DNA of 64,000 bases from Patescibacteria group bacterium (GTDB taxonomy: Bacteria; Patescibacteriota; Microgenomatia; UM-FILTER-40-11): contig DATKVM010000005.1 in the NCBI GenBank assembly GCA_035530075.1, positions 231,006 to 295,005 of the forward strand, in the 5' to 3' direction. The position numbers and the translations under genes were made by a program. The notes beneath the pieces were generated by a model that saw nothing but the letters and a program-made list of their open reading frames with translations, was not told where the DNA came from and did not search any database. Below, in pieces: positions 8,684 through 27,127 of the stretch (positions are counted from its first letter, which is position 1; every line of letters begins with the position of its first letter).

Positions 8684-8685
8684 CT

Positions 8686-11713: not shown

Positions 11714-11755
11714 CCACTGCTTTAAATTTAAGCTTAATTGAGGTAAAATTAAGGT

Positions 11756-12883
11756 ATGAAAAAGGCGGACAGCAAAGAAGAGGCAAAGACAACTAAGCCG
11801 GCGACGGTGGATACCAAAGCCGTCAAAAAACTTTTTGAAAAAGGAAAGAAGGAAGGTTTCATTACTCAGGAAGAAGTTTTAACTGTTTTTCCCTTTGCGG
11901 AAGACTACTTAGAAGAACTGGATGAATTTTACTCCAAAGTTATTGATGAGGGGATTGACATTTTTGAGAGTATCAGCGAAGAGGAGCTTAAAGAGACGGA
12001 GCGGATGGCAAAGGATTTTGCCCGGGAGATTGAAGTTTTATCCGCGCTTGAAGCTCCCTCGGTGGCCGATCCCGTCCGGATGTATCTGCGAGAAATCGGT
12101 CGCATTCCGCTTCTGACTGCGGCAGAAGAAATCGATTTGGCCCAGAGAATCGAAAAAGGCGATATGGCTGCCAAAAAGAAATTAACCGAGTCTAACTTGA
12201 GACTGGTGGTTTCTATCGCTAAGCGCTATGTTGGCCGAGGTTTAACCTTGCTAGATTTAATTCAAGAAGGTAATCAAGGCCTAATTCGGGCGGTGGAAAA
12301 ATATGATTGGCGAAGAGGTTATAAATTTTCTACTTATGCCACTTGGTGGATTCGCCAGGCAATTACCCGGGCGATTGCCGACCAAGCCAGAACGATTAGG
12401 GTTCCCGTTCATATGGTTGAGACGATTAACAAGCTAATGCGCACTTCTCGCAAGCTAATGCAGGAGTTGGGGCGTGACCCAACGCCGGAAGAAATCGGCA
12501 AGATAATGGAGATTTCCGCCACCAAAGTTCGGGAAATTTTGAAAATTGCCCAGGGAACAACTTCCTTGGAGGCGCCGGTGGGAGATGAAGAAGACTCTTT
12601 GCTGGGGGATTTTATTGCCGATACTGCGCCTTCACCGTACGACACCGCCTCCAAGCAGCTTTTAAAAGACAATATTAGGGAAGTTTTGGAAACTCTTTCT
12701 CCGAGAGAAGCCAAGGTTTTGGTCTATCGATTTGGTTTAGAGGGCGGCAGGCCAATGACTTTGGAAGAGGTGGGTAAAAAGTTTGGGGTGACTCGGGAGC
12801 GAATCAGGCAAATAGAAGCCAAAGCCTTAAGAAAACTTAAACATCCTTCGAGAAGGAAGAAACTGCAGGATTATTTGGAGTAA
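11756..12883 (+). CDS. rpoD: RNA polymerase primary sigma factor (sigma-70 family)
   Basis: Region 2 '[37 protein letters not shown]' and region 4 '[27 protein letters not shown]'. dnaG-rpoD gene order is classic. Confidence 0.9.
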
Positions 12884-14896: not shown

Positions 14897-14947
14897 GATT
14901 CAATTTTAACACGAGCTGGAAGCAAAAACGATACCTGCGCCAGGCGT

Positions 14948-15024
14948 GTCTAACAAATAAATCATTTGGTCATGTTGGCAGGAGAGAGAAGGGGTGGGAA
15001 AAGTTAGATTAAGAAAATACAGCC
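14948..15024 (+). repeat. Island repeat copy R1 (degenerate)
   Basis: '...ggcaggagagagaaggggtgggaaaagttagattaagaaaatacagcc' matches the right half of the consensus CAAGTTTAGACCTAATTGGTGGGCGAGGGGAGGGTTGGGAGAAGTTAGATTAAGAAAATTCAGCC. Confidence 0.6.
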
Positions 15025-15143
15025 ACGCAATGGAAAATACCAGAAATTATTTACGATGAAGAAATTGAGGCTAAAAGATTTGCCCCCCCCAAAGTTGCGA
15101 TTGTAAAATGATGCCTCTATAATCCCTCTCATTATGGTAGAAG

Positions 15144-15446
15144 GTGACAGGCGGTACCAATATGGGGAGCAGTTTTAGGAGATATTCAACAAAGAGGCTT
15201 GAAGCAATAGTGCGCCAAGCACAAGAAGTTCTGGATGAAAGAGACCTAACTAGAAATGGCCTGTTAATAGAAAGATTTCTGGAGATTCACAATCCAGCTA
15301 GGGGGTGTCAAGTCCAACAAAATAAAGAGCATAGACGGAGCGGTTTTTTCGATTGTGATGGTATTGAACACTCGGTTGAGGTGACTGGCTATTCTTGTCA
15401 AACTCACGGGACCAGTAGCGAAAGACGTTTTGGTGAAATTAATTAA
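15144..15446 (+). CDS. Hypothetical small protein
   Basis: 100-aa ORF inside the island. Confidence 0.3.
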   Translation: MTGGTNMGSSFRRYSTKRLEAIVRQAQEVLDERDLTRNGLLIERFLEIHNPARGCQVQQNKEHRRSGFFDCDGIEHSVEVTGYSCQTHGTSSERRFGEIN

Positions 15447-15477
15447 GCCGATCTCCAATCCTTATCCCTTCAAGTAG

Positions 15478-16374
15478 CTAAAGCATTCCGCCTTTTAACA
15501 GCCTGAACTCCTTTTTAGTTTCCCAGATATTTTTTAGTTGGTCAAAATTATCATCCGGTTTCTGCATTAACCTTGCTAGATTATCTATTTCACCTAATTG
15601 CTCCTCTGATAATTTGTCAAACTTACCAAAATGAGTTATTTGGGGAGTGTGGTGGTAAATAATTTCATCATTCATCAAGCAGTGGAAGTCATAAAAGAGT
15701 TCCCAGGAAATTGCGATTAATCCTCCGTTGCCGCCGGCATTCCAAAAGTGCTGGCCATCGATTTTACCGCTTCGTACTGCCAGCCAGGCATCAGGCGAAA
15801 AGTCAAAAGTTCCTTCCGGAATATCGTAAGGATCAAATTTTAAATACCCTTCGATACTCCCGTCAACGTCAATGGTTACCCACCTGGACTCTTTTTCATT
15901 CCAATATTGATTTAGCCAGTGGTCATCGCTTTTACCGCCCGGTAAGCCATCTACATTGAAGTAGGGAGAAAATCCCGAACGCACACGAGCCGGAATACCT
16001 TTTATCTTTAACAAAGAAGCCATTAAGATTGAGGTAGATCTACAAGTTAGGACTAACTTATTTTCCGCTTCTCTGTCTAGTACTAATCCTCTTGAATCCC
16101 TTCTAAACAGTTCCGCCAACATGGCGGAAGCGGTTATAAACACATCGTCTTCAGGTTGCCTGGTCCAGGGCACTCTGGTTGTGTCTCCATATCTTAAATC
16201 TGCGTTCGAACCGGTATTACCATTTTTCAAAGTCATTCGATGCATGAGTTGTTTTCTAACCAAGAGCCCGATTTCCCTAATATTGTCCGGTAAAGACTTT
16301 TGGAGAATGTCTTGGTAAAGACCCGGGTTGGTATACTGACTAAATTGAAGATAAAAACTTATTATTTTTTTCAT
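15478..16374 (-). CDS. Transglutaminase-like superfamily protein
   Basis: 298 aa. Putative Cys/His/Asp arrangement ('LTCRSTSILMASLL...', '...DDHWLNQYW...', 'IDVDGS'). Confidence 0.5.
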   Translation of the reverse strand: MKKIISFYLQFSQYTNPGLYQDILQKSLPDNIREIGLLVRKQLMHRMTLKNGNTGSNADLRYGDTTRVPWTRQPEDDVFITASAMLAELFRRDSRGLVLDREAENKLVLTCRSTSILMASLLKIKGIPARVRSGFSPYFNVDGLPGGKSDDHWLNQYWNEKESRWVTIDVDGSIEGYLKFDPYDIPEGTFDFSPDAWLAVRSGKIDGQHFWNAGGNGGLIAISWELFYDFHCLMNDEIIYHHTPQITHFGKFDKLSEEQLGEIDNLARLMQKPDDNFDQLKNIWETKKEFRLLKGGML

Positions 16375-16417
16375 CCACTCTCATTTTATCAAATTAAAGC
16401 AACATCTTTATTTTTGG

Positions 16418-16460
16418 TCAGATTAAAAAAATTCAGCCCCCATCCTGGATGAAGTTCGAA
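16418..16460 (+). repeat. Island repeat copy R2 (right-end fragment, ...AGATTAAAAAAATTCAGCCCCCATCCTGGATGAAGTTCGAAC)
   Basis: Near-identical to the right end of R4 (22391-22437). Confidence 0.6.
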
Positions 16461-16461
16461 C

Positions 16462-16767
16462 TTATTTTTTGGCTCCGAAGAAACCGAAGAATCCAAAAAA
16501 ACCAAAAAGTCCAGTGCTGCCCCCTAATCCCAATAAGCCAAACAATCCTATCCAGCCAAGCTTCCACAAATCCCTTGGTTTGCCCTTTCTAATATAATTG
16601 ATTGTATTTTGAACGACTGAAATCACAAATCCAAGAGCAAATATAAAGGTTAGAAGGAAAAATACTGGTTCTTCAATTTTGGAGACACCATAAATAGCGT
16701 TATGCAAAACAATAGAAAGTATGGTCAGCCCGAACAAAATATAGTTTCTTTTTGTTTGTTTTTCCAT
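16462..16767 (-). CDS. Small membrane protein with a Gly/Phe-rich tail (GLFGFFGFFGFFG)
   Basis: 101 aa and two TM helices. Last gene of the minus-strand operon. Confidence 0.4.
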   Translation of the reverse strand: MEKQTKRNYILFGLTILSIVLHNAIYGVSKIEEPVFFLLTFIFALGFVISVVQNTINYIRKGKPRDLWKLGWIGLFGLLGLGGSTGLFGFFGFFGFFGAKK

Positions 16768-16795
16768 ATTATTTATTCTACCAGAAAACTGTCTT

Positions 16796-17797
16796 CTAGG
16801 TATTTTTAATTAAACTCCAAGTGGCATATTCTTCAGGAGTTAAGGTCGGCTCTTTGGCGGATTTTTGGCGGTAAGACCGCTCGAAGTGGGGGACCAGAAT
16901 ATCTTTCTCATAGGATTTAATAATGACGGGATGAATATAGTAGGTGCGGCAGACTTTCTTGGTATTGCCAAGCTGGGTTGAGACTTCGGCCACCACTTCA
17001 GAGAGATTGTTTTTTAAATCCGCCTCGGAAAGCGCCTTGCCTTTTTTATACAGCCAGTCTCCGGCTAAAACGCTGCCGCCCCAGGTGCGAAAATCTTTAG
17101 CGGAAAAATCTGCTCCCGTATGAGTTTGCAAGTAATTGTTCACCTCGGCTGCGTCGACCACTTGCCGGTTATTATTTTCGTCTAAATACTGAAACACTTG
17201 ATAGCCGGGAAGGTCAATGCAGGCCTTAATCGTTCTGGCCACTCGGGGATGATTGACCCCCAGTTCATGAAAGACCCCGCTTTTACCTTCAAAGCTAAAG
17301 GTCATCGTATTGCCTTCAACCTCAATATGCTTTTTGCGCATGGTGGTTAGGCCGTAGGACTGGTTTTCTTCGGCGTAGGTTTGATTGCCCACCCGGATAA
17401 AAGTGTGCTCCAAAAGCCAGACGACCGTGGCAACGACGCGATTTTGAGTTAGAGAGTGTTCTCGCATATGGCCGCTGACGACTTCGCGCAGGGCGGGGAG
17501 CCGCTCGCCAAAAGCTACCATTTGGTCAAACTTTTTTTCTTGGTTGCGCTTAATCCACTCGGGGTGATAAATATATTGTTTGCGGCCGGCTGCGTCCACG
17601 CCAATCGCCTGAACATAATCGTCGGGGTCTGAGCTAACAACCACCTCGGTCCAGGCGGGGGGAATGGCCAACGCGGCTAAACGCTCGGCCGCCGTTTTGG
17701 AAACCGGCTTGCCTTTTTCATCGATAAACCCAAAGCCATTACCTCTCTTAACCCGCCGCCAAGGAAGTTCTGTATCTTTCCGATAATGAATTGTCAC
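16796..17797 (-). CDS. DNA topoisomerase IB (poxvirus/bacterial type)
   Basis: 'AIPPAWTEV...AIGVDAAGRKQYIYHPEW' and the C-terminal 'LGNTKKVCRTYYIHP' match bacterial TopIB motifs, including the catalytic Tyr region. Confidence 0.7.
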   Translation of the reverse strand: MTIHYRKDTELPWRRVKRGNGFGFIDEKGKPVSKTAAERLAALAIPPAWTEVVVSSDPDDYVQAIGVDAAGRKQYIYHPEWIKRNQEKKFDQMVAFGERLPALREVVSGHMREHSLTQNRVVATVVWLLEHTFIRVGNQTYAEENQSYGLTTMRKKHIEVEGNTMTFSFEGKSGVFHELGVNHPRVARTIKACIDLPGYQVFQYLDENNNRQVVDAAEVNNYLQTHTGADFSAKDFRTWGGSVLAGDWLYKKGKALSEADLKNNLSEVVAEVSTQLGNTKKVCRTYYIHPVIIKSYEKDILVPHFERSYRQKSAKEPTLTPEEYATWSLIKNT

Positions 17798-17835
17798 CAG
17801 TATATTGTAGCAAAACTAGAGGGTAGATAAAGAAA

Positions 17836-18465
17836 CTAACTTAACCATTTTGTAAGTTGTTGGCCGATTTTCGTCACCAAATCATGAGCACCAGATAAAT
17901 TAGCTGCAATACCAACCGCTGACCATGCCGCTTGGATAATTTTTTTTGTTGGATTGGGTTTAATTAGTTGGGCTTTAATCACCTCAATATCTCCAACAAG
18001 ATTTCTTTTTTCTTCATCAGATAACTGGGCTTCTTTAATGATGCCTATCAATTTGTCCAGATCGTTTATAGAACTTCCACTTGCCTGAGAGATAGTCCCA
18101 TATTGATGGCCCGAGACAAAGATCACATTTGCCCCTTCTTCAGCCTCAATTGTGACAGAAGATAAGGCTTTTTGGGAAAATTTCGAATCTTCAAATAACC
18201 GAATGCCTTTATTAGATATCCTTATTTCTTGAAACAAAATAGATTGTCCTGTTAGTTTCACCCGTTCATTCCTAGTGTCAATGTATTTCTCGCCAATCAA
18301 GTAATCAATATTATTCTTAATCCTAATTCTATCTAACTCTGCAGAGCGTAAATCGCCAATCACTTTTTCTGAAGTAGTCCACTGAGCCCTTGATTTGTTG
18401 AAGTCATAAAGATATCTAAGGATTTTTTCTTTTACTTCGTCTTCGGAAAGAGTATTCGAGTCCAT
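17836..18465 (-). CDS. Hypothetical protein (operon member)
   Basis: 209 aa. Stop/start 2 nt from the upstream gene. Confidence 0.4.
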   Translation of the reverse strand: MDSNTLSEDEVKEKILRYLYDFNKSRAQWTTSEKVIGDLRSAELDRIRIKNNIDYLIGEKYIDTRNERVKLTGQSILFQEIRISNKGIRLFEDSKFSQKALSSVTIEAEEGANVIFVSGHQYGTISQASGSSINDLDKLIGIIKEAQLSDEEKRNLVGDIEVIKAQLIKPNPTKKIIQAAWSAVGIAANLSGAHDLVTKIGQQLTKWLS

Positions 18466-18466
18466 A

Positions 18467-18880
18467 TTAAATCAAATCATTTTCTAAACCATACTTTATT
18501 GCTTTGAGCGAAGCTCGTGCACTTTCCAAATCCTCTTTATATGCCTCGGCGTCTCTTGCATCATTTCCTTCCGAATCCCCAATTGTGTAAACCCCAGATC
18601 TATAATCCAATCTCTCAAAATTCTGATAGTATTTGGAATTGGTAGTTATAAGGTTATCGAGAATCATTAATGTCTCTTCGCGCCACTGCCGAAGGAGATC
18701 GTAATCGACTTTTCCAAGTAGTTGGTCTATAAGGTCGATTTTTGAATCAAGTAGAGTTATCTTATCTTTTTTATCCATTTGTTTAATTTCTTTGAGTGAG
18801 CTTTTGCTCCGCGAGCCTAAGATTAATATAACCTTTGACTTCACTCCAATTATACTCGCTTTACAAGATTTGAGGTACAT
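18467..18880 (-). CDS. Hypothetical protein (operon member; the real start may be the internal Met, giving ~100 aa)
   Basis: 137-aa ORF. Predicted coiled-coil content. Confidence 0.35.
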   Translation of the reverse strand: MYLKSCKASIIGVKSKVILILGSRSKSSLKEIKQMDKKDKITLLDSKIDLIDQLLGKVDYDLLRQWREETLMILDNLITTNSKYYQNFERLDYRSGVYTIGDSEGNDARDAEAYKEDLESARASLKAIKYGLENDLI

Positions 18881-18925
18881 CGGAGAGATGAGGCAAAGGC
18901 GGGAAGAAATTAAAAAAATTAGCGC

Positions 18926-20347
18926 TCATTCATCTTTAATTCCAACATAAAACCTGCCGGTGGCGACACAAACACCCTTATTTATGGCATAGCAATCAAC
19001 CCAATGCATACCTGGGTATTGGGTGTGTTCTTCTTTAAAGTCTGAGTCTCCCTCGCAAAAATGAAATTCGTTTCCTCTCCAACCGCCTATGCGTGCCATT
19101 TCTAATGCCGGAAGTCCATTATTAACCACTAACCACCTTATTTCATCATATACAAGTCCATTAATATCTGGTGAAAAATATAAGGAATATTCCTTGCTAA
19201 GATATTCTCCTGAAGTCATTGACCTTGTGCCATTAAGTACCTCAAGTTGAAACTTAGAAAATGGTTTTGGAATATTCTTGAAAGAAGGAGGATTTTTAAC
19301 CTTTTCTGAGCGCTTGACCTTGCAGGAAACGTTAATTTTTGAGGGGTTAGGAGCAAAAGGCCATGGCGGATTAGCAATGAGACTCTCCCTCAAAGCAGAA
19401 TATACTTCTTCTCTTTCTTCCTCTGGCATGTTTATAAATTCACCTAATGCTTTGGAGGCAAAATCCACGGCTAATTTTCTTTGCACTCCCGTTTTATCTT
19501 CATTCAAATAACTGTCCACAAAAATATTGCTCTCTGCCATATCTGGTATTGCTGGTTTCTCTAGCCATTGCCCCATATTCTTAAGGAAATAACAAACTGC
19601 ATCATAAAAATTAATACCTTTATTCTGGGCAAAGATGTTTGTGATAACTAGCTCAAGATGAAAGGATTTCAGCTCAAACTCGGTTAATCCGGCATTACAC
19701 GACTTTTTCCAAACTTTAGCAAACTTGACGGATTTTCTATAACTAGGATTTGAATTTAAATTTAAAGCTTGTTTGATGTAGCCTTTGGGGTCAGACAAAA
19801 TCCAGGGAATTTTCCCCCCACTAACGCTATATTTCTTGGCCCAATTGCCCCGGTGCATTTTCTGGATTTCTGGAACCAAATAAATATCGTCTCCATACCT
19901 GTTTTTTCTTCCAGATTTTAAAGCGGGAACAACATCTATGGAAAAACCCTTTTCTTTTGGAAAAGCGATGCTAACTGAGTGTGTTTGGTCTGCGTCAATT
20001 TCTACTTCTTCTCCTATTTTACGATAACCTTCGGCCAAAATTGAAGCTAAGCTTTGTAATGGGTCTTTAACATCAAAATAGAAGGGTTCACCTTGCTTAG
20101 CGCTTGAAAAAAGCTTACTTCCGGTTACTTGAAAAGCTTCAGGTAATACCCATATTATGTCAAGGTCGTGAACGGGGGTTACTGAAGTTTCTCTAACATA
20201 TGAACCGCTTTGAAAAATTTCATTCCCAGGTAATATCTCTTGAAGGTCGCTGTAATGTTTTGAAATAACTTCTCTTTCCTCCGCCGGGGGCGATAAATAC
20301 TTGCGACAAAACTCCTCTAAGGTGGTATTAACTTCGTCTTGGTTCAT
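18926..20347 (-). CDS. cGAS/DncV-like nucleotidyltransferase (CD-NTase/SMODS-type Pol-beta NTase) with a ~300-aa C-terminal domain of unknown function
   Basis: 'QSGSYVRETSVTPVHDLDIIWVLP' fits GS-x9-[DE]hDh. The third acidic residue lies in 'FSIDVVPAL' about 75 residues later. This spacing and context match CD-NTase, OAS and SMODS cores. The gene overlaps the upstream TM-protein gene by 20 nt. Confidence 0.55.
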   Translation of the reverse strand: MNQDEVNTTLEEFCRKYLSPPAEEREVISKHYSDLQEILPGNEIFQSGSYVRETSVTPVHDLDIIWVLPEAFQVTGSKLFSSAKQGEPFYFDVKDPLQSLASILAEGYRKIGEEVEIDADQTHSVSIAFPKEKGFSIDVVPALKSGRKNRYGDDIYLVPEIQKMHRGNWAKKYSVSGGKIPWILSDPKGYIKQALNLNSNPSYRKSVKFAKVWKKSCNAGLTEFELKSFHLELVITNIFAQNKGINFYDAVCYFLKNMGQWLEKPAIPDMAESNIFVDSYLNEDKTGVQRKLAVDFASKALGEFINMPEEEREEVYSALRESLIANPPWPFAPNPSKINVSCKVKRSEKVKNPPSFKNIPKPFSKFQLEVLNGTRSMTSGEYLSKEYSLYFSPDINGLVYDEIRWLVVNNGLPALEMARIGGWRGNEFHFCEGDSDFKEEHTQYPGMHWVDCYAINKGVCVATGRFYVGIKDE

Positions 20348-20918
20348 ATCGGTACGAGGACATAATGGAAAAAATATCGCTCACTAAGCGAAGTGGCATG
20401 CTTGATAGAGCATACCATTTGTAATCTTTAATTATTTCCTTATGTTTATCGTCAAGTTGGTAGCCTATTTCAAAGGTATAAATAATTAAGGGTTTATCGG
20501 CTCGCTTGACCATTTGAAAAAAATCGTCAAAGTCATTCATTCCCCTATGGTATCCCAGTATTATAATGCCAGCTTCATCAATATCTTTCTGGTCAATAGC
20601 ATGGAAATCGGTTACAACTCCTTTAGAGACATTAAAATAGCCTGAACTCTTAAGAACGCCAAGTTCCCGTTCCATGTCTTTTGTTCCGCCATCAGTTCTT
20701 TTTCCCCCGGGCGGACAAAAAATAAAAACCTTTTTGCCTAAATTCTTCCCAAGTCTCCAAAAAACTTTGGCCGAACGACTGAAGATAACAATATACCCCA
20801 CAAAGACCAATAAAAGACCGCCAGCGGCTTTTAAAATATCCCAGAGGCTAAGGATGGTAGCAACATTGTTGATGTTCGTATCGGTTTCCATTTTGCCTGT
20901 CAAATAAGTGCTTGACAT
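20328..20918 (-). CDS. N-terminally TM-anchored protein with a Rossmann-like alpha/beta domain (possibly TIR-like or SLOG-like); candidate effector
   Basis: TM helix 'LLLVFVGYIVIFS', then 'KKVFIFCPPGGKRTDGG...IIILGYHRG...KPLIIYTFE', which alternates beta and alpha elements. First gene of the operon, separated from divergent lexA by 30 bp. Confidence 0.4.
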   Translation of the reverse strand: MSSTYLTGKMETDTNINNVATILSLWDILKAAGGLLLVFVGYIVIFSRSAKVFWRLGKNLGKKVFIFCPPGGKRTDGGTKDMERELGVLKSSGYFNVSKGVVTDFHAIDQKDIDEAGIIILGYHRGMNDFDDFFQMVKRADKPLIIYTFEIGYQLDDKHKEIIKDYKWYALSSMPLRLVSDIFSIMSSYRYEPRRS

Positions 20919-20948
20919 TATTGTAGATATACCATAAACTTACTATAG

Positions 20949-21545
20949 ATGCAAGAGGTAAAACCATTAACAGAGCGCCAAAAACTTGTTCTTAGTTTCA
21001 TAGCCACTTTCTTAAAGGAAAAAGGGTTTTCTCCTTCACTTAAAGAAATTGCCCGTTTTATTGAAACCGATAACCTCAGTTCGGCCCAATATTTTGTTAA
21101 AGAACTTGAGGAGAAGGGATATTTAAGGAAGAATGCCAATAAATCAAGGGGCATTGCTCCAATTCCTATTCGGTCTTCCATCCCCTTACTTGGATATATT
21201 GCGGCAGGGAAACCCATTGACCCCATGGAGAACCCGGAGGAGATTTCTGTTCCCTCAAGTATTACGATTGATACTCGTTATCCTCATTATGCCCTCAAGG
21301 TTAAAGGCGATAGCATGATTGATATGGGAATCTTAAACGGCGATATCGTTATAATTAAACATCAACTAACTGCGGATAATGGGGATGTCGTAGTCGCCGT
21401 TACAGAACACGGAGCAACACTGAAAATCCTGAAAAAAAGTGGCAGTAAAGTTCTTTTAGAACCGAGGAATAAAAACTATCAAACTATCTATCCTAAACAA
21501 TTGGAAATCAGAGGGAAATTTGTTGGGCTAATAAGAGGAGAATGA
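20949..21545 (+). CDS. lexA: LexA repressor
   Basis: N-terminal winged-helix domain. Ala-Gly cleavage site 'IAAGKP', catalytic Ser in 'KGDSMID' and Lys in 'GATLKIL'. 198 aa. Confidence 0.85.
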   Translation: MQEVKPLTERQKLVLSFIATFLKEKGFSPSLKEIARFIETDNLSSAQYFVKELEEKGYLRKNANKSRGIAPIPIRSSIPLLGYIAAGKPIDPMENPEEISVPSSITIDTRYPHYALKVKGDSMIDMGILNGDIVIIKHQLTADNGDVVVAVTEHGATLKILKKSGSKVLLEPRNKNYQTIYPKQLEIRGKFVGLIRGE

Positions 21546-21661
21546 GTTGGTTTTACCAGTCTTACCCAGTGGTAAGTATAGTGAAAGCCCATTTGTTCCC
21601 ACGCGTGGACTCCCTTCGGTTCCCTCAGGGCAAGCCCTTAGGAAACTCAGGGTAAACTTCA

Positions 21662-21780
21662 CGCCTTCCAGACCTAACAAGCCTGCCTGCCGGTGGGCAA
21701 GTTTAGACCTAATTGTTGGGCGAGGGGGTGAAAGAAGTTAGATTAAGAAAATTTAGCTTGCTCTGAAACGACTTTCGAAC
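21662..21780 (+). repeat. Island repeat copy R3 (extended form with a CCTGCCTGCCGG left arm)
   Basis: '...ccttccagacctaacaagcctgcctgccggtgggcaagtttagacctaattgttgggcgagggggtgaaagaagttagattaagaaaatttagc...gactttcgaac'. Confidence 0.6.
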
Positions 21781-21781
21781 T

Positions 21782-22303
21782 TTAAACATTTCGGGCTTGT
21801 AACTTTGGTAATAGCGCCTTGTATCGTTTAATTTTGGTTTGTTTAGTTAACATGGCGTATCTGGGCGAAGGAGATGGTAGGCAAATCAACTCTATCTTAG
21901 TGTATTGTTGGATTATATCCTTGAACTGTCTTTTAAACATTTTTTCTACATGGCGACTGGTGAAAAAGATTTTCTCGATAGTATGGTTTTTGAGGATAGT
22001 TGTGACCCCATTAGTGTTATAGACGATATTAAATAAGTTTATATCTAAATTACTATTTTTCTTTCTTTCGCAGGATAAGATTATATCTACTAGTGCCATC
22101 TTTAGTTGTACAAAAAGCCCTTGCTGCCTTTCTTTAGTACTGAAGTCGGAACTATAAACTTCTTCCATGATTGGCCAGAACTGATTGCGACCGTTTGCAT
22201 AAAACCAGTCGTAAGGACTTGAGGGTTTAGTTACAAAACTTCCCAGCATTAAATACTTTACTTTCTCAGGAACAAAGTCTCCAAACGGATGCGTTTCAAC
22301 CAT
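21782..22303 (-). CDS. UDG-superfamily DNA glycosylase (MUG/TDG family-2-like)
   Basis: 'MLGSFVTKPSSPYDWFYANGRNQFW' parallels the MUG/TDG motif GINPG...NHFW. The C-terminal 'LPSPSPRYA' parallels the TDG motif MPSSSAR. Confidence 0.5.
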   Translation of the reverse strand: MVETHPFGDFVPEKVKYLMLGSFVTKPSSPYDWFYANGRNQFWPIMEEVYSSDFSTKERQQGLFVQLKMALVDIILSCERKKNSNLDINLFNIVYNTNGVTTILKNHTIEKIFFTSRHVEKMFKRQFKDIIQQYTKIELICLPSPSPRYAMLTKQTKIKRYKALLPKLQARNV

Positions 22304-22340
22304 GGGAATATTATACTGTAGTTCGAGTCCACGCCGGGTT

Positions 22341-22437
22341 CAGTGTAACAAGTTTAGACCTGATTGGTGGGCGAGGGGAAGGTTAGGAGAAGTTAGATTA
22401 AGAAAATTCAGCCCCCATCATGGACGAAGTTCGAACT
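22341..22437 (+). repeat. Island repeat copy R4 (near-consensus)
   Basis: 'cagtgtaacaagtttagacctgattggtgggcgaggggaaggttaggagaagttagattaagaaaattcagcccccatcatggacgaagttcgaac'. Confidence 0.7.
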
Positions 22438-22445
22438 AGTTTAGC

Positions 22446-23048
22446 TTAAGGATTGAAGTTTTGGGCCTTTTCAAAAATCTCAGAAAGTAAATGATAATAA
22501 CTTTTCGCTTCTTCTTTTACTTCTGGCAGAGAAATAATTGCTATTTTTTCCTCTAATTTCTGCTTAGCATATCTTAGTAAATCCTCAAATGCCATTCCTC
22601 TTTTACCTAAAGAAGAAATAAAGGCAAATACTCCTCTTGGGTGAAGAAATTTAAAGCAATCAGCATTAGCGCAGATTTCTGCCTCAATACTGGGATATTT
22701 CTTCATACCGTGGTGACTTGAAATACAATCTGAAATTTCTTTAATAATCTTTTTATCTAAATCTAAGGGTCTTATTGCTAATAAAGTTGCCTTAAGGGAC
22801 ATTTGAACATGGTCTTTCATTCTATTATTCAGGAAAGCTTCTCCCATTTTCAGGTCCATAAAATTCAGACAGGCTAAAATAAAATCTTCATTTGCCTTGT
22901 AGGCTTTCGCCAATTCTTTCCCATAGGCTAAACAAATTTTATGGTTTTCTATTGGAGGTATATCTGTCTTTTCAACCTCCTTTTTTAGAAGTTTTTCAGA
23001 AATTTCTAAGAGATTTTTGTTAAAATCATTCATACCCAATTTTATCAT
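22446..23048 (-). CDS. Putative HD-superfamily hydrolase (weak call)
   Basis: 200 aa with spaced His/Asp residues (HKICLAY, MDLKMGE, KDHVQMS, SSHHG, NADCF). The assignment is uncertain. Confidence 0.3.
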   Translation of the reverse strand: MIKLGMNDFNKNLLEISEKLLKKEVEKTDIPPIENHKICLAYGKELAKAYKANEDFILACLNFMDLKMGEAFLNNRMKDHVQMSLKATLLAIRPLDLDKKIIKEISDCISSHHGMKKYPSIEAEICANADCFKFLHPRGVFAFISSLGKRGMAFEDLLRYAKQKLEEKIAIISLPEVKEEAKSYYHLLSEIFEKAQNFNP

Positions 23049-23090
23049 AAACTAAAAAGCCCAATTTTAAGGGCTTTCTGAAGCTAGCTC

Positions 23091-23208
23091 CGTAATCCTA
23101 GGATTAATCTTGCCTGCCGGTTGCATGTCGCCAAAGGCTTTCGCCGACGGCACGCAGGCAAGTTTAGACCTAATTGGTGGGCGGGGGGAGGGTTGGGAGG
23201 AGTTTGGA
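23091..23208 (+). repeat. Island repeat copy R5
   Basis: Left arm 'cgtaatcctaggattaatcttgcctgccgg' matches the left arm of R12. Core 'caagtttagacctaattggtgggcggggggagggttgggaggagtt'. Confidence 0.65.
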
Positions 23209-23382
23209 TCTCCAAAGACAACTACCAGTCGTCGCTGGGCAGTTCTCTTAACATATCTGAACGACCCGACTCAAATCCTTCTTGCCGGCCAAAGAAAAAA
23301 TGTTTCCATGACTCAACAATATTTCCAATATTTCCACTCCCGGAGTGGAATAGTTCTCGCACTGAAGCTAAACAACGCTCCG

Positions 23383-23628
23383 CTAGCGATGAGAAGGCTT
23401 TTCTAAACCCAGTGCGACTTGACGAGCGCAATTATCTCTGTGACCCAACTCCTGGTCGCCTCTGCACCAAGGGCACCTTGGATAAACATTAGCCTCATTC
23501 ACATATGTCATGACGAACTCGACTTGCTGTAGTGCCCCTCGCAACAATGTTATTTGTTCTTCTGGAGACATCGATATCTCTCCCCCCGGTGAACCGCCTT
23601 CTTTTTCCCTTTTAACCATCCTTTCCAC
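23383..23628 (-). CDS. Hypothetical small Cys-containing protein (CPWC)
   Basis: 81-aa ORF in an otherwise ORF-poor 0.5-kb stretch between R5 and R6. Coding status is uncertain. Confidence 0.25.
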   Translation of the reverse strand: MERMVKREKEGGSPGGEISMSPEEQITLLRGALQQVEFVMTYVNEANVYPRCPWCRGDQELGHRDNCARQVALGLEKPSHR

Positions 23629-23702
23629 CTCCCTCTAGGCAGAGATTAAGAACAATTCATCCTAAATCTACTCTTTCTGCTTATTATTGTCAAAAAATTC
23701 CT

Positions 23703-23760
23703 TTTTAGACCCAATTGGTGGGCGAGGGGAGGGTTGGAAGAGGTTAGATTAGAAATTCAA
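23703..23760 (+). repeat. Island repeat copy R6
   Basis: 'tttagacccaattggtgggcgaggggagggttggaagaggttagattagaaattcaa'. Confidence 0.65.
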
Positions 23761-23895
23761 CTCCTCAATCTTGAGATTATTATAGTAACAATCGAGAAAG
23801 TATTAAAGGCTTTTGAGAACGTTATCCAAATGGAGTTGGTAAGGGTCAGGTGGGAAGAAATCCAAAGATTTCAAATTAAATCCACTTCTGTTTAA

Positions 23896-24660
23896 TCAAG
23901 GTTTCCTTGCGACAATAACTACTCTATGTCTTGGGAATTTAATTCCCTTCTTTGTCCTAAACTTCGCCACATATTTCTCTAAGAATTTCATATCTTTCTC
24001 GGAATCAAAATCTTCAAATATGGGAACTCCTTGTAAAAATAGGTCTAAATCTTCATAAGAAGCATAGTATTCGTCATAGAAATAATCTTGAGCAAAGATG
24101 ATTTCAAACCCTGCGTCTTTAAGCTCCCATTTATCCTCTTCTAGTCTCGAAGCATTCCACTCTTTATATCCTTGACCACGACCAAATATTTCTTTAATTG
24201 ATTGACAGTCTTTTTCTCCAATGTTTATACCAACAAAGTAACCACCTGATTTTAATAGTCTATGAAACTCGGAAAAAGGTGTCGGGCCGCGACGACTAAA
24301 TATTAAATCAAAAGATTTATCGGAAAATGATGTTTTGCTGGCATCCTGCAGTTCAAAAATAACATTTTTGACTTGTAAAATATTTTGCTTTTGCCTGGCA
24401 ATTTTTAATAATCCTTTGGATATGTCAATTCCTGCGATACTTAAAAAATATTTTGCTATTTGGAAAGCAAACTTTCCGTCACCGCATCCAGCGTCGAGAG
24501 CAATTTTGTTTTTATTTGCCAAACCAAGTAGTTTTTTCTTAAAAATTTTCTCAGGATCTCCATTCGGATATTCGGAAAGGTGTTCTACATGACTTTTACC
24601 AAAGGCGTATCCACCGAATTTCTTAGCCACTTTATCGTAGAAGTTTGATGACATAAGCAT
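23896..24660 (-). CDS. Class I SAM-dependent methyltransferase
   Basis: Motif I 'ALDAGCGDGKFAFQ' and post-I acidic 'GIDIS'. 254 aa. Confidence 0.65.
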   Translation of the reverse strand: MLMSSNFYDKVAKKFGGYAFGKSHVEHLSEYPNGDPEKIFKKKLLGLANKNKIALDAGCGDGKFAFQIAKYFLSIAGIDISKGLLKIARQKQNILQVKNVIFELQDASKTSFSDKSFDLIFSRRGPTPFSEFHRLLKSGGYFVGINIGEKDCQSIKEIFGRGQGYKEWNASRLEEDKWELKDAGFEIIFAQDYFYDEYYASYEDLDLFLQGVPIFEDFDSEKDMKFLEKYVAKFRTKKGIKFPRHRVVIVARKP

Positions 24661-24789
24661 ATTTTACTACTCTTTTAGACCTCACGTCTGACTGTTTTTA
24701 CCCCGCTATTGGATTCAAAACATACGATTTAGTTTTCTAACACAGACTTTTTCTAAGTGGCTTTAGAAAAATAGTCTTTTATAGCTTTG

Positions 24790-24869
24790 CACCTTCCAGG
24801 CCTAACAAGTTTAGACCTAATTGGTGGGCGAGGGGAGAGTTGGGAAAAGTTAGATTAAGAAAATTCAGT
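24790..24869 (+). repeat. Island repeat copy R7 (near-consensus)
   Basis: 'caccttccaggcctaacaagtttagacctaattggtgggcgaggggagagttgggaaaagttagattaagaaaattcag'. Confidence 0.7.
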
Positions 24870-25011
24870 TCACACTGAGTCCTTCGATAGACTCAGGGTA
24901 AATTTATCGAAGTGCCCGCCGGATGGAACGATTTTTTAACCTTAAGCTGGGTTGAGTCCGTCAAGTTTCATCCTATTGAACTATCGCAACTTCCTTCTAT
25001 AAAATAAGTAT

Positions 25012-25545
25012 TTATTTTTTTAATTCCTTAGTAGTACTTCCTTGCTCCAATAATCGGAAAATATCTAAGACGTAATCCGGCCAAATCCATTCAATGAATT
25101 TAACTCCGTTATTTTCTTCAACCGCTTGGATTATCTTAGAAAGAGGAACATTGTCTCGGGCAAGTCCTTGTTTTTCTAAATCAAGAATTTCTTCCAGTGT
25201 GAACCACTCAACAGTCTTTATTTCTTCCTCCAATCTATTGCCGAGCCTTTCAAAACCTTCTCCGTAAAAGACAAAACTTAAAAGATAAATCGTGTTATTT
25301 AAAGTTCCCTGGACAACCGTGCCTAGACGAACAATGTTAGTTTTACCTCCCGTTTCTTCAACCAATTCTCGTTTGGCTGCTTCCGCGACACTCTCTTCTT
25401 TATTTACCTCGCCATGGGGAAAAGTCCACTTGCCCTTGGAGTGAGTATTGATATGACCATAAACTTTATCGGTCGCTTCCTGAACCAGTAGATATTTACC
25501 ATTATCTTTGACCAGGCAATTAGCCAAAATTATTGGGCGTATCAT
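25012..25545 (-). CDS. Nudix hydrolase
   Basis: Nudix box 'GEVNKEESVAEAAKRELVEETGG'. 177 aa. Confidence 0.7.
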   Translation of the reverse strand: MIRPIILANCLVKDNGKYLLVQEATDKVYGHINTHSKGKWTFPHGEVNKEESVAEAAKRELVEETGGKTNIVRLGTVVQGTLNNTIYLLSFVFYGEGFERLGNRLEEEIKTVEWFTLEEILDLEKQGLARDNVPLSKIIQAVEENNGVKFIEWIWPDYVLDIFRLLEQGSTTKELKK

Positions 25546-25675
25546 TTAAGTAGATTATAGCAAATGTTCGAATCCTGTCTGGGGTATAAAGTTATTAGGA
25601 TAATATTTGAGGCTAAAAAAATTTGCTCCTCTATCTAGACACTATACGAACTAGAGAGTGGGTTAGTAGTTTTTT

Positions 25676-26485: not shown

Positions 26486-26520
26486 CATATCAATTAGCTT
26501 GATGTGAGGTTTTGTTTTCT

Positions 26521-26556
26521 CCCCCGTGTGGGCTCGAACCACGAACCAATCGCTTA
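26521..26556 (-). other. att-like partial duplicate of the tRNA-Asn(GUU) 3' half (T-arm and acceptor)
   Basis: 'cccccgtgtgggctcgaaccacgaaccaatcgctta' is nearly identical to 31773-31808 of the intact tRNA-Asn ('cccccgcgtggattcgaaccacgaaccgatcgctta'). The match ends at the anticodon stem. Confidence 0.55.
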
Positions 26557-26559
26557 TGG

Positions 26560-26635
26560 TTTCACACCTCCCAAGTGTAACAGCCTGCCTACTGGTAGAC
26601 AAGTTTAGACCTAATTGGTGGGCGAAGGGAGGAAC
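26560..26635 (+). repeat. Island repeat copy R8 (truncated at its right end by the GNAT gene)
   Basis: 'ttcacacctcccaagtgtaacagcctgcctactggtagacaagtttagacctaattggtgggcgaagggagg'. Confidence 0.65.
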
Positions 26636-26641
26636 AAAGAA

Positions 26642-27106: not shown

Positions 27107-27127
27107 GAATCGCCTGTTCTTCCAAAA

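What the first reader, a model, noticed from the sequence alone, without database searches (positions are those of the whole stretch)
16462..21545. Repeat-bounded module: lexA divergent from an operon with a TM alpha/beta protein, a cGAS/DncV-like nucleotidyltransferase, two unknown proteins, topoisomerase IB and a small membrane protein
The 473-aa protein has the Pol-beta NTase signature GS-x9-DhDh ('GSYVRETSVTPVHDLDII') plus a third acidic residue in 'SIDVVPA'. That is the arrangement seen in CD-NTases, SMODS and OAS. It overlaps by 20 nt an upstream gene for a protein with one N-terminal TM helix and a Rossmann-like domain, which resembles the TM-anchored effectors of minimal CBASS-type systems. 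The rest of the operon does not match any CBASS, Thoeris or Pycsar layout I know. It holds two small unknown proteins, a type IB topoisomerase (rare in bacteria) and a Gly/Phe-rich membrane peptide. The operon start lies 30 bp from a bona fide lexA, so LexA may control a nucleotide second-messenger or abortive-infection module, tying it to the SOS response. The whole unit lies between repeat copies R2 and R3, so it may be mobile as a cassette.
Basis: partly seen in the sequence, partly recalled or inferred. Interest (0 to 1): 0.85.

Follow-up and report, generated by a model that had tools for sequence, protein, structure and literature searches.

The report
LexA-linked minimal CBASS in CPR bacterium
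The 473-aa enzyme and the membrane protein upstream of it form an ordinary two-gene CBASS anti-phage system in a candidate-phyla-radiation bacterium; the other four "operon" genes are unrelated neighbours, but its head-to-head position next to lexA recurs across phyla and suggests an undescribed LexA (DNA-damage) switch for such systems.

Summary
All seven ORFs exist as described. The 473-aa protein is a CD-NTase (SMODS + AGS-C; PADLOC cyclase 7e-72) with invariant GS/DxD/D. The overlapping upstream gene (probably 187 aa) is a 1-TM effector, found directly upstream of the cyclase in at least 44 of 49 related loci. Together they are a known kind of system, a minimal type I CBASS.

The rest of the "operon" is not part of it.
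- The two unknowns (really 103 + 209 aa) recur as a pair elsewhere, without CBASS.
- TopIB is a higher-GC gene not linked to the cyclase.
- The small membrane ORF has no detected relative next to the cyclase or TopIB.

The bounding repeats are a dispersed intergenic family, so they define no cassette.

The lexA idea gains support. LexA-family genes sit directly upstream of this CBASS clade in 13 of 49 loci across many phyla, and HTH + IrrE-peptidase pairs (CapH/CapP-like) hold the same slot in 5 more. This lexA has about 46 metagenomic orthologs with a conserved 40-nt promoter/operator-like region. Their divergent slot holds various defence systems, and most are followed by restriction-modification genes.

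LexA control of the CBASS is inferred, not shown. Interest is moderate.

The parts
18926..20347 (-). CD-NTase (CBASS oligonucleotide cyclase), 473 aa: N-terminal SMODS nucleotidyltransferase domain plus C-terminal AGS-C domain
   Evidence: Pfam SMODS 1.4e-6 and AGS_C 3e-14. PADLOC Cyclase PDLC00785 7.2e-72 over residues 1-471. G48, S49, D61, D63 and D138 are invariant in 33 homologs. The nearest solved relatives are CdnD 6p82 (2e-18) and CdnC 6p80.
20328..20891 (-). 1-TM CBASS effector, probably 187 aa (the longest ORF runs to 20918, 196 aa): an N-terminal TM helix plus a cytoplasmic flavodoxin-like alpha/beta domain. It overlaps the cyclase gene by 20 nt.
20912..20951 (+). lexA promoter and candidate LexA operator. 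The -35 is TTGACA (20912-20917) and the -10 is TAAACT (20935-20940). Three tandem ~10-11-nt units (ATTGTAGATA / TACCATAAAC / TTACTATAGA, 20920-20949) run up to the lexA ATG at 20949. The region lies 21-57 nt from the TM-gene start on the other strand.
   Evidence: Promoter scan 10/12. The same 40-nt architecture is conserved upstream of about 45 lexA orthologs (54-79% protein identity), whereas the sequence beyond it is unrelated between non-redundant loci. A position weight matrix built without the window sequence scores this site 30 bits, and it is the only hit above 8 bits in the 64-kb window. Function as an operator is inferred.
20949..21545 (+). lexA: LexA-family repressor (wHTH LexA_DNA_bind + S24 self-cleaving peptidase), 198 aa
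   Evidence: Pfam Peptidase_S24 8.5e-25 and LexA_DNA_bind 1.1e-14. TIGR00498 160 bits against a cut-off of 110.95. Full-length match to T. maritima LexA 3k2z at 7.6e-32. The sequence shows 'IAAGKP' (Ala-Gly), 'KGDSM' and 'ATLKIL', which correspond to the cleavage site, Ser and Lys. About 46 orthologs at 54-79% identity in metagenomes.
18806..20780 (-). Recently exchanged segment: the C-terminal two-thirds of the TM gene, the cyclase, and 120 nt of 3' flank. It is 98-99% identical to Shapirobacteria MAG JAGVBK01 (L007).
   Evidence: Sliding identity is 92-100% (mostly 96% or more) over 18885-20784, against 64-81% over 20785-21481 (TM N-terminus, intergenic region, lexA). There is no homology beyond 18806 or 21536. 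rpoD of the two genomes is 76% identical.
18467..18778 (-). p103: small helical protein (the longest ORF is 137 aa, to 18880). It is the first gene of an independent two-gene unit and is not part of the CBASS.
   Evidence: A 103-aa homolog (58% identity, 1e-41) lies directly upstream of the p209 homolog in L126, with no CBASS, TopIB or lexA nearby. Weak PADLOC PDC-S35 hits in both copies (1e-6 and 3e-7). No Pfam hit.
17836..18465 (-). p209: winged-helix (PadR/MarR-like) N-terminal domain plus a C-terminal helical bundle. It is the second gene of the independent pair.
16796..17797 (-). Bacterial type IB topoisomerase, 333 aa. It is a neighbouring gene that shows no linkage to the CBASS.
   Evidence: Pfam Topoisom_I 3.3e-37 and Top1B_N_bact 2.9e-15. 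GC is 0.496, against 0.36-0.39 for its neighbours. It appears in 1 of 49 cyclase loci (L009, 68% identity, 2 kb downstream, with different genes in between).
16462..16767 (-). 101-aa predicted membrane ORF with a Gly/Phe-rich tail, unplaced
   Evidence: No family hit in Pfam, NCBIfam, PADLOC or PHROGs. tblastn found it only in contigs of the same organism. The 93-aa ORF after TopIB in L009 looks unrelated on reading and was not compared directly.
16417..16467 (+). On the minus strand it carries a terminator-like hairpin plus T-run (16438-16454).
   Evidence: Repeat family D4/D2, alignment A3, core-motif search, terminator scan.
21680..21757 (+).
   Evidence: Families D3/D2 and alignment A3. 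It is one of 8-11 same-strand copies between 14.96 and 30.41 kb. The exact 18-nt core matches only contigs of the same organism (L001, L003) among the 129 loci held.

Best explanation
The core of the finding is a minimal type I CBASS. A CD-NTase (SMODS + AGS-C, 473 aa) is translationally coupled to a single-pass membrane effector (about 187 aa). The effector's cytoplasmic flavodoxin-like domain presumably binds the cyclase's nucleotide product and triggers membrane damage and abortive infection.

This two-gene unit sits head-to-head with lexA in a Microgenomates (CPR) genome. Its start codon lies 57 nt from the lexA ATG and 21 nt from the lexA -35 box. Any promoter for the CBASS genes must therefore overlap, or read through, the conserved lexA promoter/operator region.

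The most likely mechanism is as follows. LexA bound at this site represses both lexA and the CBASS genes. DNA damage or phage replication intermediates activate RecA, LexA cleaves itself, and the CBASS is derepressed. This would be functionally analogous to the known CapW, CapH/CapP and CapK/CapS switches.

The four genes downstream of the cyclase are unrelated neighbours: the p103-p209 pair, TopIB and the membrane ORF. The repeats are ordinary dispersed intergenic elements.

Shown: the identity of the parts, the conserved effector-cyclase pairing, the recurrent LexA adjacency, the conserved promoter/operator-like region, and the non-conservation of the other genes.

Inferred: LexA binding at that site, co-repression of the CBASS, the nucleotide product, and the killing mechanism.
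For: Cyclase identity.

Effector identity and pairing.
- PADLOC TM/1TM models match.
- A family member lies directly upstream of the cyclase in at least 44 of 49 loci from many phyla.
- The two genes overlap by 20 nt.
- The structure model supports a TM helix plus an alpha/beta domain.

LexA link, seen from the cyclase side.
- A LexA-family gene is the first or second gene upstream of the effector in 13 of 49 loci, and all 13 hits are in that slot. Nine are divergent and four are co-directional; L017, L018 and L050 have gaps of 3 nt or less.
- Six of ten tested pass the LexA equivalog cut-off.
- HTH_3 + Peptidase_M78 (IrrE/ImmA) pairs, the CapH/CapP architecture, occupy the same slot in L027, L039, L041, L045 and L055.
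- With an assumed chance rate of 0.5-2% per locus, 13 of 49 gives P of 1e-11 or less, and 8 of 30 gives P of 1e-7 or less.

LexA link, seen from the LexA side.
- 46 orthologs (54-79% identity) share a 40-nt promoter/operator-like block ending at the ATG.
- The divergent gene starts a median of about 70 nt from the lexA ATG.
- That slot holds CBASS of at least four further types in L058, L067, L068, L072, L084 and L092/L093. The effectors include NucC, SAVED-HNH and 1TM.
- L067 carries a distant 1TM + cyclase pair (28% and 34% identity) 53 nt from lexA, the same geometry as the window.

Other genes are not part of the system.

Known precedent for DNA-damage control of CBASS: PMC9122588, bioRxiv 10.1101/2022.04.27.489752, PMC13373217.
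Against: - No LexA binding has been shown, and the operator is inferred only from conservation. Part of that conservation is simply the lexA -35 and -10 boxes.
- The position weight matrix finds no second site in about 570 kb of related sequence (the window plus about 508 kb of loci), so regulon-wide use of the motif is unverified. No recA or uvrA gene lies in the window.
- No convincing sigma-70 promoter for the minus-strand genes was found between 20892 and 20960. There is only a TACAAT -10-like hexamer with a poor -35 (and reading).
- Most lexA orthologs (about 80%) have no CBASS next to them. Both flanks of these lexA genes are hypervariable and rich in defence genes. Adjacency could therefore reflect an integration hotspot rather than regulation.
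- lexA diverges at the genome background rate while the CBASS was recently swapped, so the two are not inherited as one tight unit.
- E. coli transcriptome data show defence expression negatively correlated with recA (bioRxiv 10.64898/2025.12.14.694197).
Confidence: 0.6

Rival explanations
1. Hotspot, not regulation. lexA in these CPR genomes merely flanks a defence-island integration hotspot. The CBASS, like the RM, Gabija-like, Lamassu-like and other systems found there, is expressed and controlled on its own, and LexA has no influence on it.
For: - Both flanks of the lexA orthologs are hypervariable and filled with unrelated defence genes.
- Only 6-7 of about 30 non-redundant orthologs carry a CBASS.
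- The CBASS allele was recently exchanged independently of lexA.
- The window's locus lies in a 17-kb low-GC, repeat-rich stretch (0.393 against 0.45) next to tRNA-Asn, which has a duplicated 3' fragment.
- No independent operator copies were found.
Against: - The geometry is very tight. Divergent genes start a median of about 70 nt from the lexA ATG, which leaves no room for a promoter outside the conserved block.
- Downstream RM genes start 0-56 nt after the lexA stop codon, which looks like an operon.
- In KSB1/Deferribacteres, Zixibacteria and Peregrinibacteria (L017, L018, L050) the LexA-family gene is the first gene of the CBASS operon, with gaps of 3 nt or less; in Acidobacteriota (L016) it lies co-directionally 212 nt upstream.
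- CapH/CapP-like repressor pairs occupy the same slot in sister loci.
Confidence: 0.25
2. One novel six-gene system. TM protein, CD-NTase, two unknown proteins, TopIB and the small membrane protein act together as a new nucleotide-signalling defence operon under LexA.
For: - The six genes are co-directional and tightly spaced, with gaps of -20, 147 (or 45), 1, 38 and 28 nt.
- No clear terminator was found between them on the minus strand.
- The two unknown proteins have weak hits to PADLOC defence-candidate families.
Against: - None of p103, p209 or mem101 occurs in any of 49 cyclase-clade loci. TopIB occurs once, 2 kb away, with other genes in between.
- The closest relative (98% cyclase identity) shares only lexA-TM-cyclase, and homology stops 120 nt past the cyclase stop codon.
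- p103-p209 recur as a pair in a different context.
- TopIB has a different GC content.
Confidence: 0.04
3. The lexA here is not the cell's SOS master regulator. It would be a LexA-family paralog dedicated to controlling defence genes, a 'universal defence regulator' like CapW/BrxR, and the real SOS LexA, if any, lies elsewhere in the genome.
For: - Of about 26 non-redundant ortholog loci with downstream sequence, about 21 have an RM or methyltransferase gene directly after lexA. The divergent slot is usually a defence gene too.
- No conserved housekeeping synteny is seen on either side.
- LexA next to the orthologous CBASS in Woesebacteria (L008, L009) is only 32% identical, while TopIB, TM and cyclase are 59-68% identical.
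Against: - It scores as a LexA equivalog (160 bits against a cut-off of 110.95).
- Its divergence from L007 matches the genome background.
- No second lexA lies in the 64-kb window, although that covers only a small part of the genome.
- Whole genomes could not be searched here.
Confidence: 0.3
4. The NTase is an MNT-type antitoxin or a housekeeping Pol-beta-family enzyme rather than a signalling cyclase.
For: The GS-x9-DxD signature is generic to the Pol-beta NTase superfamily.
Against: - At E of 0.1 or better, Pfam reports only SMODS and AGS_C.
- A PADLOC cyclase model matches full length at 7e-72.
- The nearest solved structures are CdnD and CdnC.
- No HEPN partner is present, and a TM effector partner is conserved.
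Confidence: 0.01

Closest known systems
Type I CBASS (two-gene: CD-NTase plus transmembrane effector)
   Same: It has a CD-NTase with GS/DxD/D residues, a directly adjacent and overlapping effector gene with an N-terminal TM helix, and no Cap2/Cap3, HORMA/TRIP13 or other ancillary genes. PADLOC 'Cyclase' and 'Effector 1TM' models both match.
   Different: The cyclase scores far below the NCBIfam CBASS_cyclase_a/b equivalog cut-offs (58 and 44 bits against 200). It therefore belongs to a clade poorly covered by those models, found mostly in CPR and other uncultured phyla. The effector's soluble domain is a small flavodoxin-like fold (REC/TIR/DNPH1-like), not SAVED or a beta-barrel. The effector's best PADLOC hit is a type III CRISPR-associated TM family, C3a59.
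CapH/CapP, CapW and CapK/CapS: DNA-damage-responsive transcriptional switches encoded upstream of CBASS operons (bioRxiv 10.1101/2022.04.27.489752; PMC9122588; PMC11662680; PMC13373217)
   Same: A repressor gene lies immediately upstream of the CBASS, usually divergent, and its inactivation is coupled to DNA damage. In sister loci of this same cyclase clade the slot is filled by HTH_3 + Peptidase_M78 pairs with the CapH/CapP architecture. Like those regulators, the LexA orthologs are found beside many kinds of defence system.
   Different: Here the repressor is a single LexA-family protein (wHTH + S24 self-cleaving peptidase). It would sense damage through RecA filaments rather than through direct ssDNA binding by a WYL domain, an M78 peptidase or a kinase. 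Full-text searches found no paper describing LexA-family regulators of CBASS. Regulation here is inferred, not measured.
Canonical LexA/SOS autoregulated loci with a divergent damage-inducible gene (established knowledge, for example lexA-yneA in Bacillus subtilis; LexA motif diversity reviewed in PMC8565304)
   Same: The gene is a LexA equivalog. A conserved operator-like block overlaps its own -10 box and start site. The divergent neighbour shares the control region.
   Different: The divergent and downstream neighbours are immune systems (CBASS, RM and others) rather than repair or cell-division genes. The candidate operator is a run of three ~11-nt direct units rather than a classic palindrome. 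No further regulon sites could be found.
Bacterial topoisomerase IB (Pfam Topoisom_I + Top1B_N_bact)
   Same: The 333-aa protein has both domains.
   Different: Nothing unusual was found. It is 68% identical to a Woesebacteria ortholog and is not linked to the cyclase in other genomes.

Membership tests
CBASS (type I) | CD-NTase/SMODS nucleotidyltransferase with GS ... [DE]h[DE] ... [DE] catalytic residues | tested here: met
   Pfam SMODS 29.0 bits (cut-off 26.5) and AGS_C 53.5 bits. PADLOC Cyclase 7.2e-72, full length. G48, S49, D61, D63 and D138 are invariant.
CBASS (type I) | Effector gene adjacent to the cyclase in the same operon | tested here: met
   The genes overlap by 20 nt. PADLOC 'Effector 1TM' 1.8e-5 and TM family C3a59 2e-24. 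The adjacency is conserved in at least 44 of 49 loci.
CBASS (type I) | No ancillary Cap2/Cap3 (E1/E2/JAB), HORMA/TRIP13 or QueC/TGT/OGG genes (this separates type I from types II-IV) | tested here: met
   The PADLOC scan of all seven proteins gives no such hits. The Pfam scan likewise gives none.
CBASS (type I) | NCBIfam CBASS_cyclase_a/b equivalog score above the cut-off | tested here: not met
   57.7 and 44.4 bits against a cut-off of 200. The protein is related to those two curated subfamilies but is not a member of them.
CBASS (type I) | Synthesis of a cyclic oligonucleotide that activates the effector, and phage protection by abortive infection | not testable with these tools
   This needs biochemistry and phage challenge.
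LexA | N-terminal LexA-type winged HTH plus C-terminal S24 peptidase | tested here: met
   Pfam LexA_DNA_bind 1.1e-14 and Peptidase_S24 8.5e-25. Full-length alignment to T. maritima LexA 3k2z at 7.6e-32.
LexA | Score above the curated LexA equivalog cut-off | tested here: met
   TIGR00498 160.3 bits against 110.95.
LexA | Ala-Gly cleavage site and Ser/Lys catalytic dyad | tested here: met
   Read directly from the translation: 'GYIAAGKP', 'KGDSMIDM' and 'GATLKILKK'. 'KGDSMID' aligns to 'KGESMIE' and 'IAAG' to 'IRAG' of T. maritima LexA. The residue roles are assigned by homology.
LexA | Autoregulatory operator in its own promoter | tested here: inconclusive
   A 40-nt block (-35, three ~11-nt units, -10, ATG) is conserved across about 45 orthologs with otherwise unrelated upstream DNA. 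Binding was not tested, and no second site was found.
LexA | Controls an SOS regulon (recA, repair or translesion genes) and is the genome's SOS repressor | not testable with these tools
   Only 64 kb of this genome is available.
CapH/CapP or CapW regulators | HTH repressor plus M78 (IrrE/ImmA-like) peptidase, or wHTH-WYL-WCX protein, encoded upstream of the CBASS | tested here: not met
   The window has neither. Sister loci L027, L039 and L045 do have HTH_3 + Peptidase_M78 in that slot by Pfam; L041 and L055 were assigned by homology to them.
   The protein is 473 aa with SMODS + AGS_C only. There are no HEPN hits in the neighbours.
Bacterial topoisomerase IB | Topoisom_I catalytic core plus bacterial TopIB N-terminal domain | tested here: met
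   Pfam 3.3e-37 and 2.9e-15.

The most novel reading that the evidence does not exclude
In Microgenomates (CPR) bacteria, LexA would be the hub of a hypervariable immune island. Restriction-modification genes would be co-transcribed downstream of lexA. A swappable slot divergent from lexA would hold at least five different CBASS types as well as Gabija-, Lamassu-, PARIS/Septu-like and candidate systems. All of these would share one conserved LexA promoter/operator, so RecA-triggered LexA self-cleavage would license the cell's immune arsenal. More broadly, LexA-family proteins would be a fourth, RecA-dependent class of CBASS transcriptional switch alongside CapW, CapH/CapP and CapK/CapS, found from CPR to Acidobacteriota, Zixibacteria and KSB1.
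Probability: 0.4. Interest if true: 0.75.

Novelty: new variant of a known kind. Interest (0 to 1): 0.55.

Why it matters
The CBASS itself is ordinary, but its coupling to LexA would matter for two reasons.

First, how abortive-infection systems are kept silent and then licensed is an open question. Three DNA-damage-linked regulator classes have recently been described for CBASS. A LexA-family switch would tie CBASS, and apparently RM and other systems, directly to the classical RecA/LexA SOS pathway. It is testable with simple EMSA and reporter experiments on a defined 40-nt site.

Second, CPR bacteria have tiny genomes and are thought to be poor in defence systems and regulators. A single conserved regulator fronting a swappable defence slot would be an economical design for such genomes. 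It would also be a practical genomic beacon for finding new defence genes in uncultured lineages.

Tried and rejected
- **Six-gene operon as one system:** rejected by the neighbourhood survey of 49 cyclase loci and by the L007 comparison.
- **Repeats as cassette ends:** rejected. The family is dispersed, with 8-11 copies, and the exchanged DNA is not bounded by it. Rfam has no match to the repeats.
- **Phage-borne CBASS or phage repressor:** there is 1 viral-contig hit for the cyclase clade and none for LexA.
- **Cam1/CARF-like identity of the TM effector:** not supported. Sequence and profile searches of the PDB found nothing. The fold searches gave only generic flavodoxin-like hits (REC, TIR, DNPH1/MilB), so the ligand-binding class is unresolved.
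- **Classical LexA boxes:** inspection of 20892-20951 found no classical palindromic box (for example CTGT-N8-ACAG or GAAC-N4-GTTC), only tandem direct units. The paper on the Patescibacteria SOS network (PMID 28618189) is not in the library.
- **Other LexA targets:** a position-weight-matrix scan found no second site in about 570 kb (the window plus about 508 kb of loci), and no recA or uvrA gene is in the window.
- **Sigma-70 promoter for the TM operon:** none reached the scanner's threshold.
- **p103/p209 function:** only weak PADLOC candidate-family hits and a wHTH fold were found, with no function. The AFDB fold library was unavailable.
- **Literature on LexA-regulated CBASS or lexA-anchored defence islands:** nothing relevant was found.

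Full report
**What is in the sequence.**
- On the minus strand: a 196-aa ORF (20328-20918), a 473-aa ORF (18926-20347, overlapping the former by 20 nt), 137-aa (18467-18880), 209-aa (17836-18465), 333-aa (16796-17797) and 101-aa (16462-16767) ORFs.
- On the plus strand: lexA (20949-21545).

Exact-protein look-ups and homolog names place the organism in the CPR/Patescibacteria, class Microgenomates. The same locus is on seven metagenome contigs. The nearest named genome is a Shapirobacteria/Microgenomates MAG.

**The nucleotidyltransferase and the TM protein are a type I CBASS.**
- The 473-aa protein matches Pfam SMODS and AGS_C. It matches a PADLOC oligonucleotide-cyclase model end to end at 7e-72, and NCBIfam CBASS cyclase models well below their cut-offs.
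- In an alignment of 33 homologs, G48, S49, D61, D63 and D138 are invariant.
- Its nearest solved relatives are CdnD and CdnC.
- The upstream protein matches a PADLOC transmembrane family (C3a59, 2e-24) and the CBASS 'Effector 1TM' model.
- Its AlphaFold model (pLDDT 82) is a long N-terminal helix (residues 3-51) that contains the hydrophobic TM segment, followed by a five-stranded flavodoxin-like alpha/beta domain. That domain resembles receiver, TIR and DNPH1/MilB-type nucleotide-binding folds only generically.
- Its probable start is Met10 (20891), as in its homologs.
- I surveyed 49 loci encoding relatives of the cyclase in one-genome-per-species bacterial and archaeal assemblies. A member of this TM family lies directly upstream of the cyclase in at least 44 of them, across many phyla.
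- Three other loci (L016, L025, L044) carry a related soluble 232-240-aa protein in its place; the L016 copy matches DUF6602.
- No Cap2/Cap3, HORMA/TRIP13 or other ancillary genes are present.

This is therefore a standard minimal CBASS, not a layout outside known types.

**The other four genes are not part of it.**
- None of the 137-aa, 209-aa or 101-aa proteins is found in any of the 49 loci. TopIB occurs once (L009, Woesebacteria), 2 kb downstream, with different genes in between.
- The closest relative (L007, cyclase 98% identical) shares only window 18806-21536, which is lexA, the TM gene, the cyclase and 120 nt of 3' flank. Its flanking genes are different.
- The 137-aa ORF is best read as 103 aa from Met35. 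A 103-aa homolog (58% identity) sits immediately before a 207-aa homolog of the 209-aa protein (53%) in another Shapirobacteria contig, without CBASS, TopIB or lexA.
- That pair is therefore an independent two-gene unit. The 209-aa protein models as a PadR/MarR-like winged helix plus a helical bundle. Both proteins give only weak hits to PADLOC candidate families PDC-S35 and PDC-M14B. Their function stays open.
- TopIB is a normal bacterial TopIB. Its GC is 0.50, against 0.36-0.39 around it.

**The repeats.** The "R2" and "R3" copies belong to a dispersed repeat with a ~75-nt core.
- The 18-nt core occurs 8 times with at most 1 mismatch (0.2 expected), and there are 11 longer copies.
- All copies are on the plus strand between 14.96 and 30.41 kb, in most intergenic gaps of 21.5-30.4 kb.
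- The exact 18-nt core matches only contigs of the same organism among the 129 loci held.
- The family has no Rfam match.
- The copy at 16417 carries a terminator-like hairpin on the minus strand.

The repeats do not define a cassette.

**A recent exchange of the CBASS allele.** Window and L007 are 92-100% identical (mostly 96% or more) from 18885 to 20784. From 20785 to 21481 (TM N-terminus, intergenic region, lexA) they are only 64-81% identical. That is close to the 76% seen for rpoD. The effector-cyclase DNA was therefore recently exchanged between lineages by recombination into a pre-existing lexA-adjacent locus, while lexA itself is long resident.

**The lexA link, from the cyclase side.**
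- A profile of LexA-like neighbours finds a LexA-family gene in 13 of the 49 loci, always as the first or second gene upstream of the effector.
- The taxa are Microgenomates (3 loci), Parcubacteria, Moraniibacteria, Saccharibacteria (3 loci), Peregrinibacteria, Termititenax, Acidobacteriota, KSB1/Deferribacteres and Zixibacteria.
- Nine are divergent and four are co-directional; L017, L018 and L050 have gaps of 3 nt or less.
- Six of ten tested pass the LexA equivalog cut-off.
- In five further loci the same slot holds an HTH_3 protein plus a Peptidase_M78 (IrrE/ImmA-like) protein. That is the architecture of the known CBASS regulators CapH/CapP (bioRxiv 10.1101/2022.04.27.489752).
- With a generous assumed chance rate of 0.5-2% per locus, 13 of 49, or 8 of 30 after collapsing lineages, is far beyond chance (the null rate is my assumption).

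**The lexA link, from the LexA side.**
- A metagenome scan with the window's LexA returned 69 loci. Of these, 46 are orthologs at 54-79% identity.
- They share a strikingly conserved 40-nt block ending at the ATG: TTGACA, a 17-nt spacer, TAAAnT, and three tandem ~11-nt units of the type TAYCATAAA. The DNA further upstream is unrelated between non-redundant loci.
- A weight matrix built without the window's sequence scores window 20920-20949 at 30 bits. That is the only hit above 8 bits in the 64 kb.
- The block implies a nearly leaderless lexA mRNA and is the obvious candidate for the autoregulatory operator. Binding is untested, and no second site was found in about 570 kb of related DNA (the window plus about 508 kb of loci).
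- In these loci a divergent gene starts a median of about 70 nt from the lexA ATG.
- Only one ortholog (L067) has a TM + cyclase pair like the window's. It is only 28% and 34% identical, yet it starts 53 nt from lexA, the same geometry.
- The same slot holds other CBASS: short cyclases in L058 and L084, a NucC effector in L084, SAVED-HNH with a cyclase in L072, and a further cyclase family in L068 and L092/L093.
- It also holds GajB-like helicases, AriA/PtuA/OLD-like ATPases, a PDC-S46 protein (9e-266), LmuA-like and Ppl-like proteins, and Schlafen/AlbA_2.
- Directly downstream of lexA (0-56 nt), about 21 of 26 non-redundant loci carry Eco57I-like RM, C5 or N4/N6 methyltransferase genes. L007 has an N4/N6 methyltransferase there. 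The window does not.
- Neither the cyclase clade nor this LexA is common on viral contigs.

**Interpretation.** The best-supported reading is a minimal type I CBASS placed in the divergent slot of a LexA-family repressor gene. Its start codon is 21 nt from the lexA -35 box. Transcription of the CBASS genes must therefore begin within, or pass through, the conserved LexA control region. RecA-stimulated LexA self-cleavage would then derepress it.

This parallels the known DNA-damage switches of CBASS: CapW, CapH/CapP and CapK/CapS (PMC9122588, PMC11662680, PMC13373217). It would use the classical SOS sensor instead. I found no description of this in the searchable literature.

Shown:
- the identity of the parts;
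- the conserved effector-cyclase pairing;
- the recurrent LexA adjacency;
- the conserved control block.

Inferred:
- LexA binding at that block;
- co-repression of the CBASS;
- the nucleotide product;
- the killing mechanism.

The main rival is that lexA merely flanks a defence-island hotspot. The window's locus does lie in a 17-kb low-GC, repeat-rich stretch next to tRNA-Asn, which has a duplicated 3' fragment. Operon-like spacing and the co-directional LexA-effector-cyclase operons in other phyla argue against pure coincidence.

Whether this LexA is the cell's SOS master regulator or a dedicated defence regulator could not be decided from 64 kb.

**Verdict.** The CBASS is a new member of a known kind. 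The LexA coupling, and the lexA-centred defence island in Microgenomates, is a plausible new regulatory variant worth testing. Interest is moderate (0.55).

Noticed in passing
L058-L099 (metagenome loci with lexA orthologs); compare window 20949-21545: Orthologs of this lexA are almost always followed, within 0-56 nt and on the same strand, by restriction-modification or DNA methyltransferase genes (Eco57I-like type IIG, C5 or N4/N6). They are preceded by a divergent defence gene of variable type. lexA looks like the fixed anchor of a hypervariable defence island.
   Followed up: partly
window 14957-30411: A dispersed repeat with a ~75-nt core (consensus ...CAAGTTTAGACCTAATTGGTGGGCGAGGGGAGGGTTGGGAGAAGTTAGATTAAGAAAATTCAGCC...) has 8-11 copies, all on the + strand. 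They lie in intergenic gaps, including most gaps of 21.5-30.4 kb. The exact 18-nt core matches only contigs of the same organism among the loci held, and the family has no Rfam match. The copy at 16417 has a terminator-like hairpin on the minus strand.
   Followed up: partly
window 26519-26556 and 31771-31843: A 38-nt copy (89% identity) of the 3' end of tRNA-Asn (31771-31843, minus strand) lies 5.2 kb away. This is a possible att-site duplication from an integrated element.
   Followed up: no
window 14900-31700: This stretch has lower GC (0.393) than the flanks (0.446-0.456). It holds the CBASS, lexA, the repeat family and many small unannotated genes. TopIB (0.496) stands out inside it.
   Followed up: partly
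L126 3237-7773: The p103/p209 homolog pair sits inside a run of seven co-directional genes (192, 232, 376, 103, 207, 148 and 210 aa). None of them has a Pfam hit. This may be a larger uncharacterised module in Shapirobacteria.
   Followed up: partly
L017 8977-9753, L024 8998-9792 and similar loci: Relatives with a short cyclase (about 340 aa, no AGS-C) are followed by a 240-275-aa gene with a Cys/His-rich C-terminal motif. It could be a split-off partner that replaces the fused AGS-C domain.
   Followed up: no
L016 7266-7988, L025 4263-4982, L044 2893-3591: In these three cyclase loci the TM effector is replaced by a related soluble 232-240-aa protein with PD-(D/E)xK-like motifs; the L016 copy matches DUF6602 (6e-31). 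Two of the three loci (L016, L044) also have a LexA-family gene upstream.
   Followed up: partly
window 21782-22303 (minus strand): A 173-aa protein convergent with lexA resembles DNA-deoxyinosine glycosylase (TIGR04274). It scores 70 bits, below the cut-off of 80.
   Followed up: no
L008, L009, L014, L017, L018, L044, L048, L050, L052: 130 nt upstream of the LexA-like genes: Each LexA-family gene next to a CBASS has its own short direct or inverted repeats just upstream. Examples are TACACTATATGTGTA in L017, ACTTTAGGTA twice in L052, and ATAACATTA twice in L044. These may be lineage-specific operators. They were seen by eye only.
   Followed up: no
window 3926-4301 and 5585-9365: A tmRNA gene and a cluster of six tRNA genes (four Ser, two Arg) lie upstream of dnaG/rpoD-like genes (9893-12883). 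This shows that the window is chromosomal.
   Followed up: no
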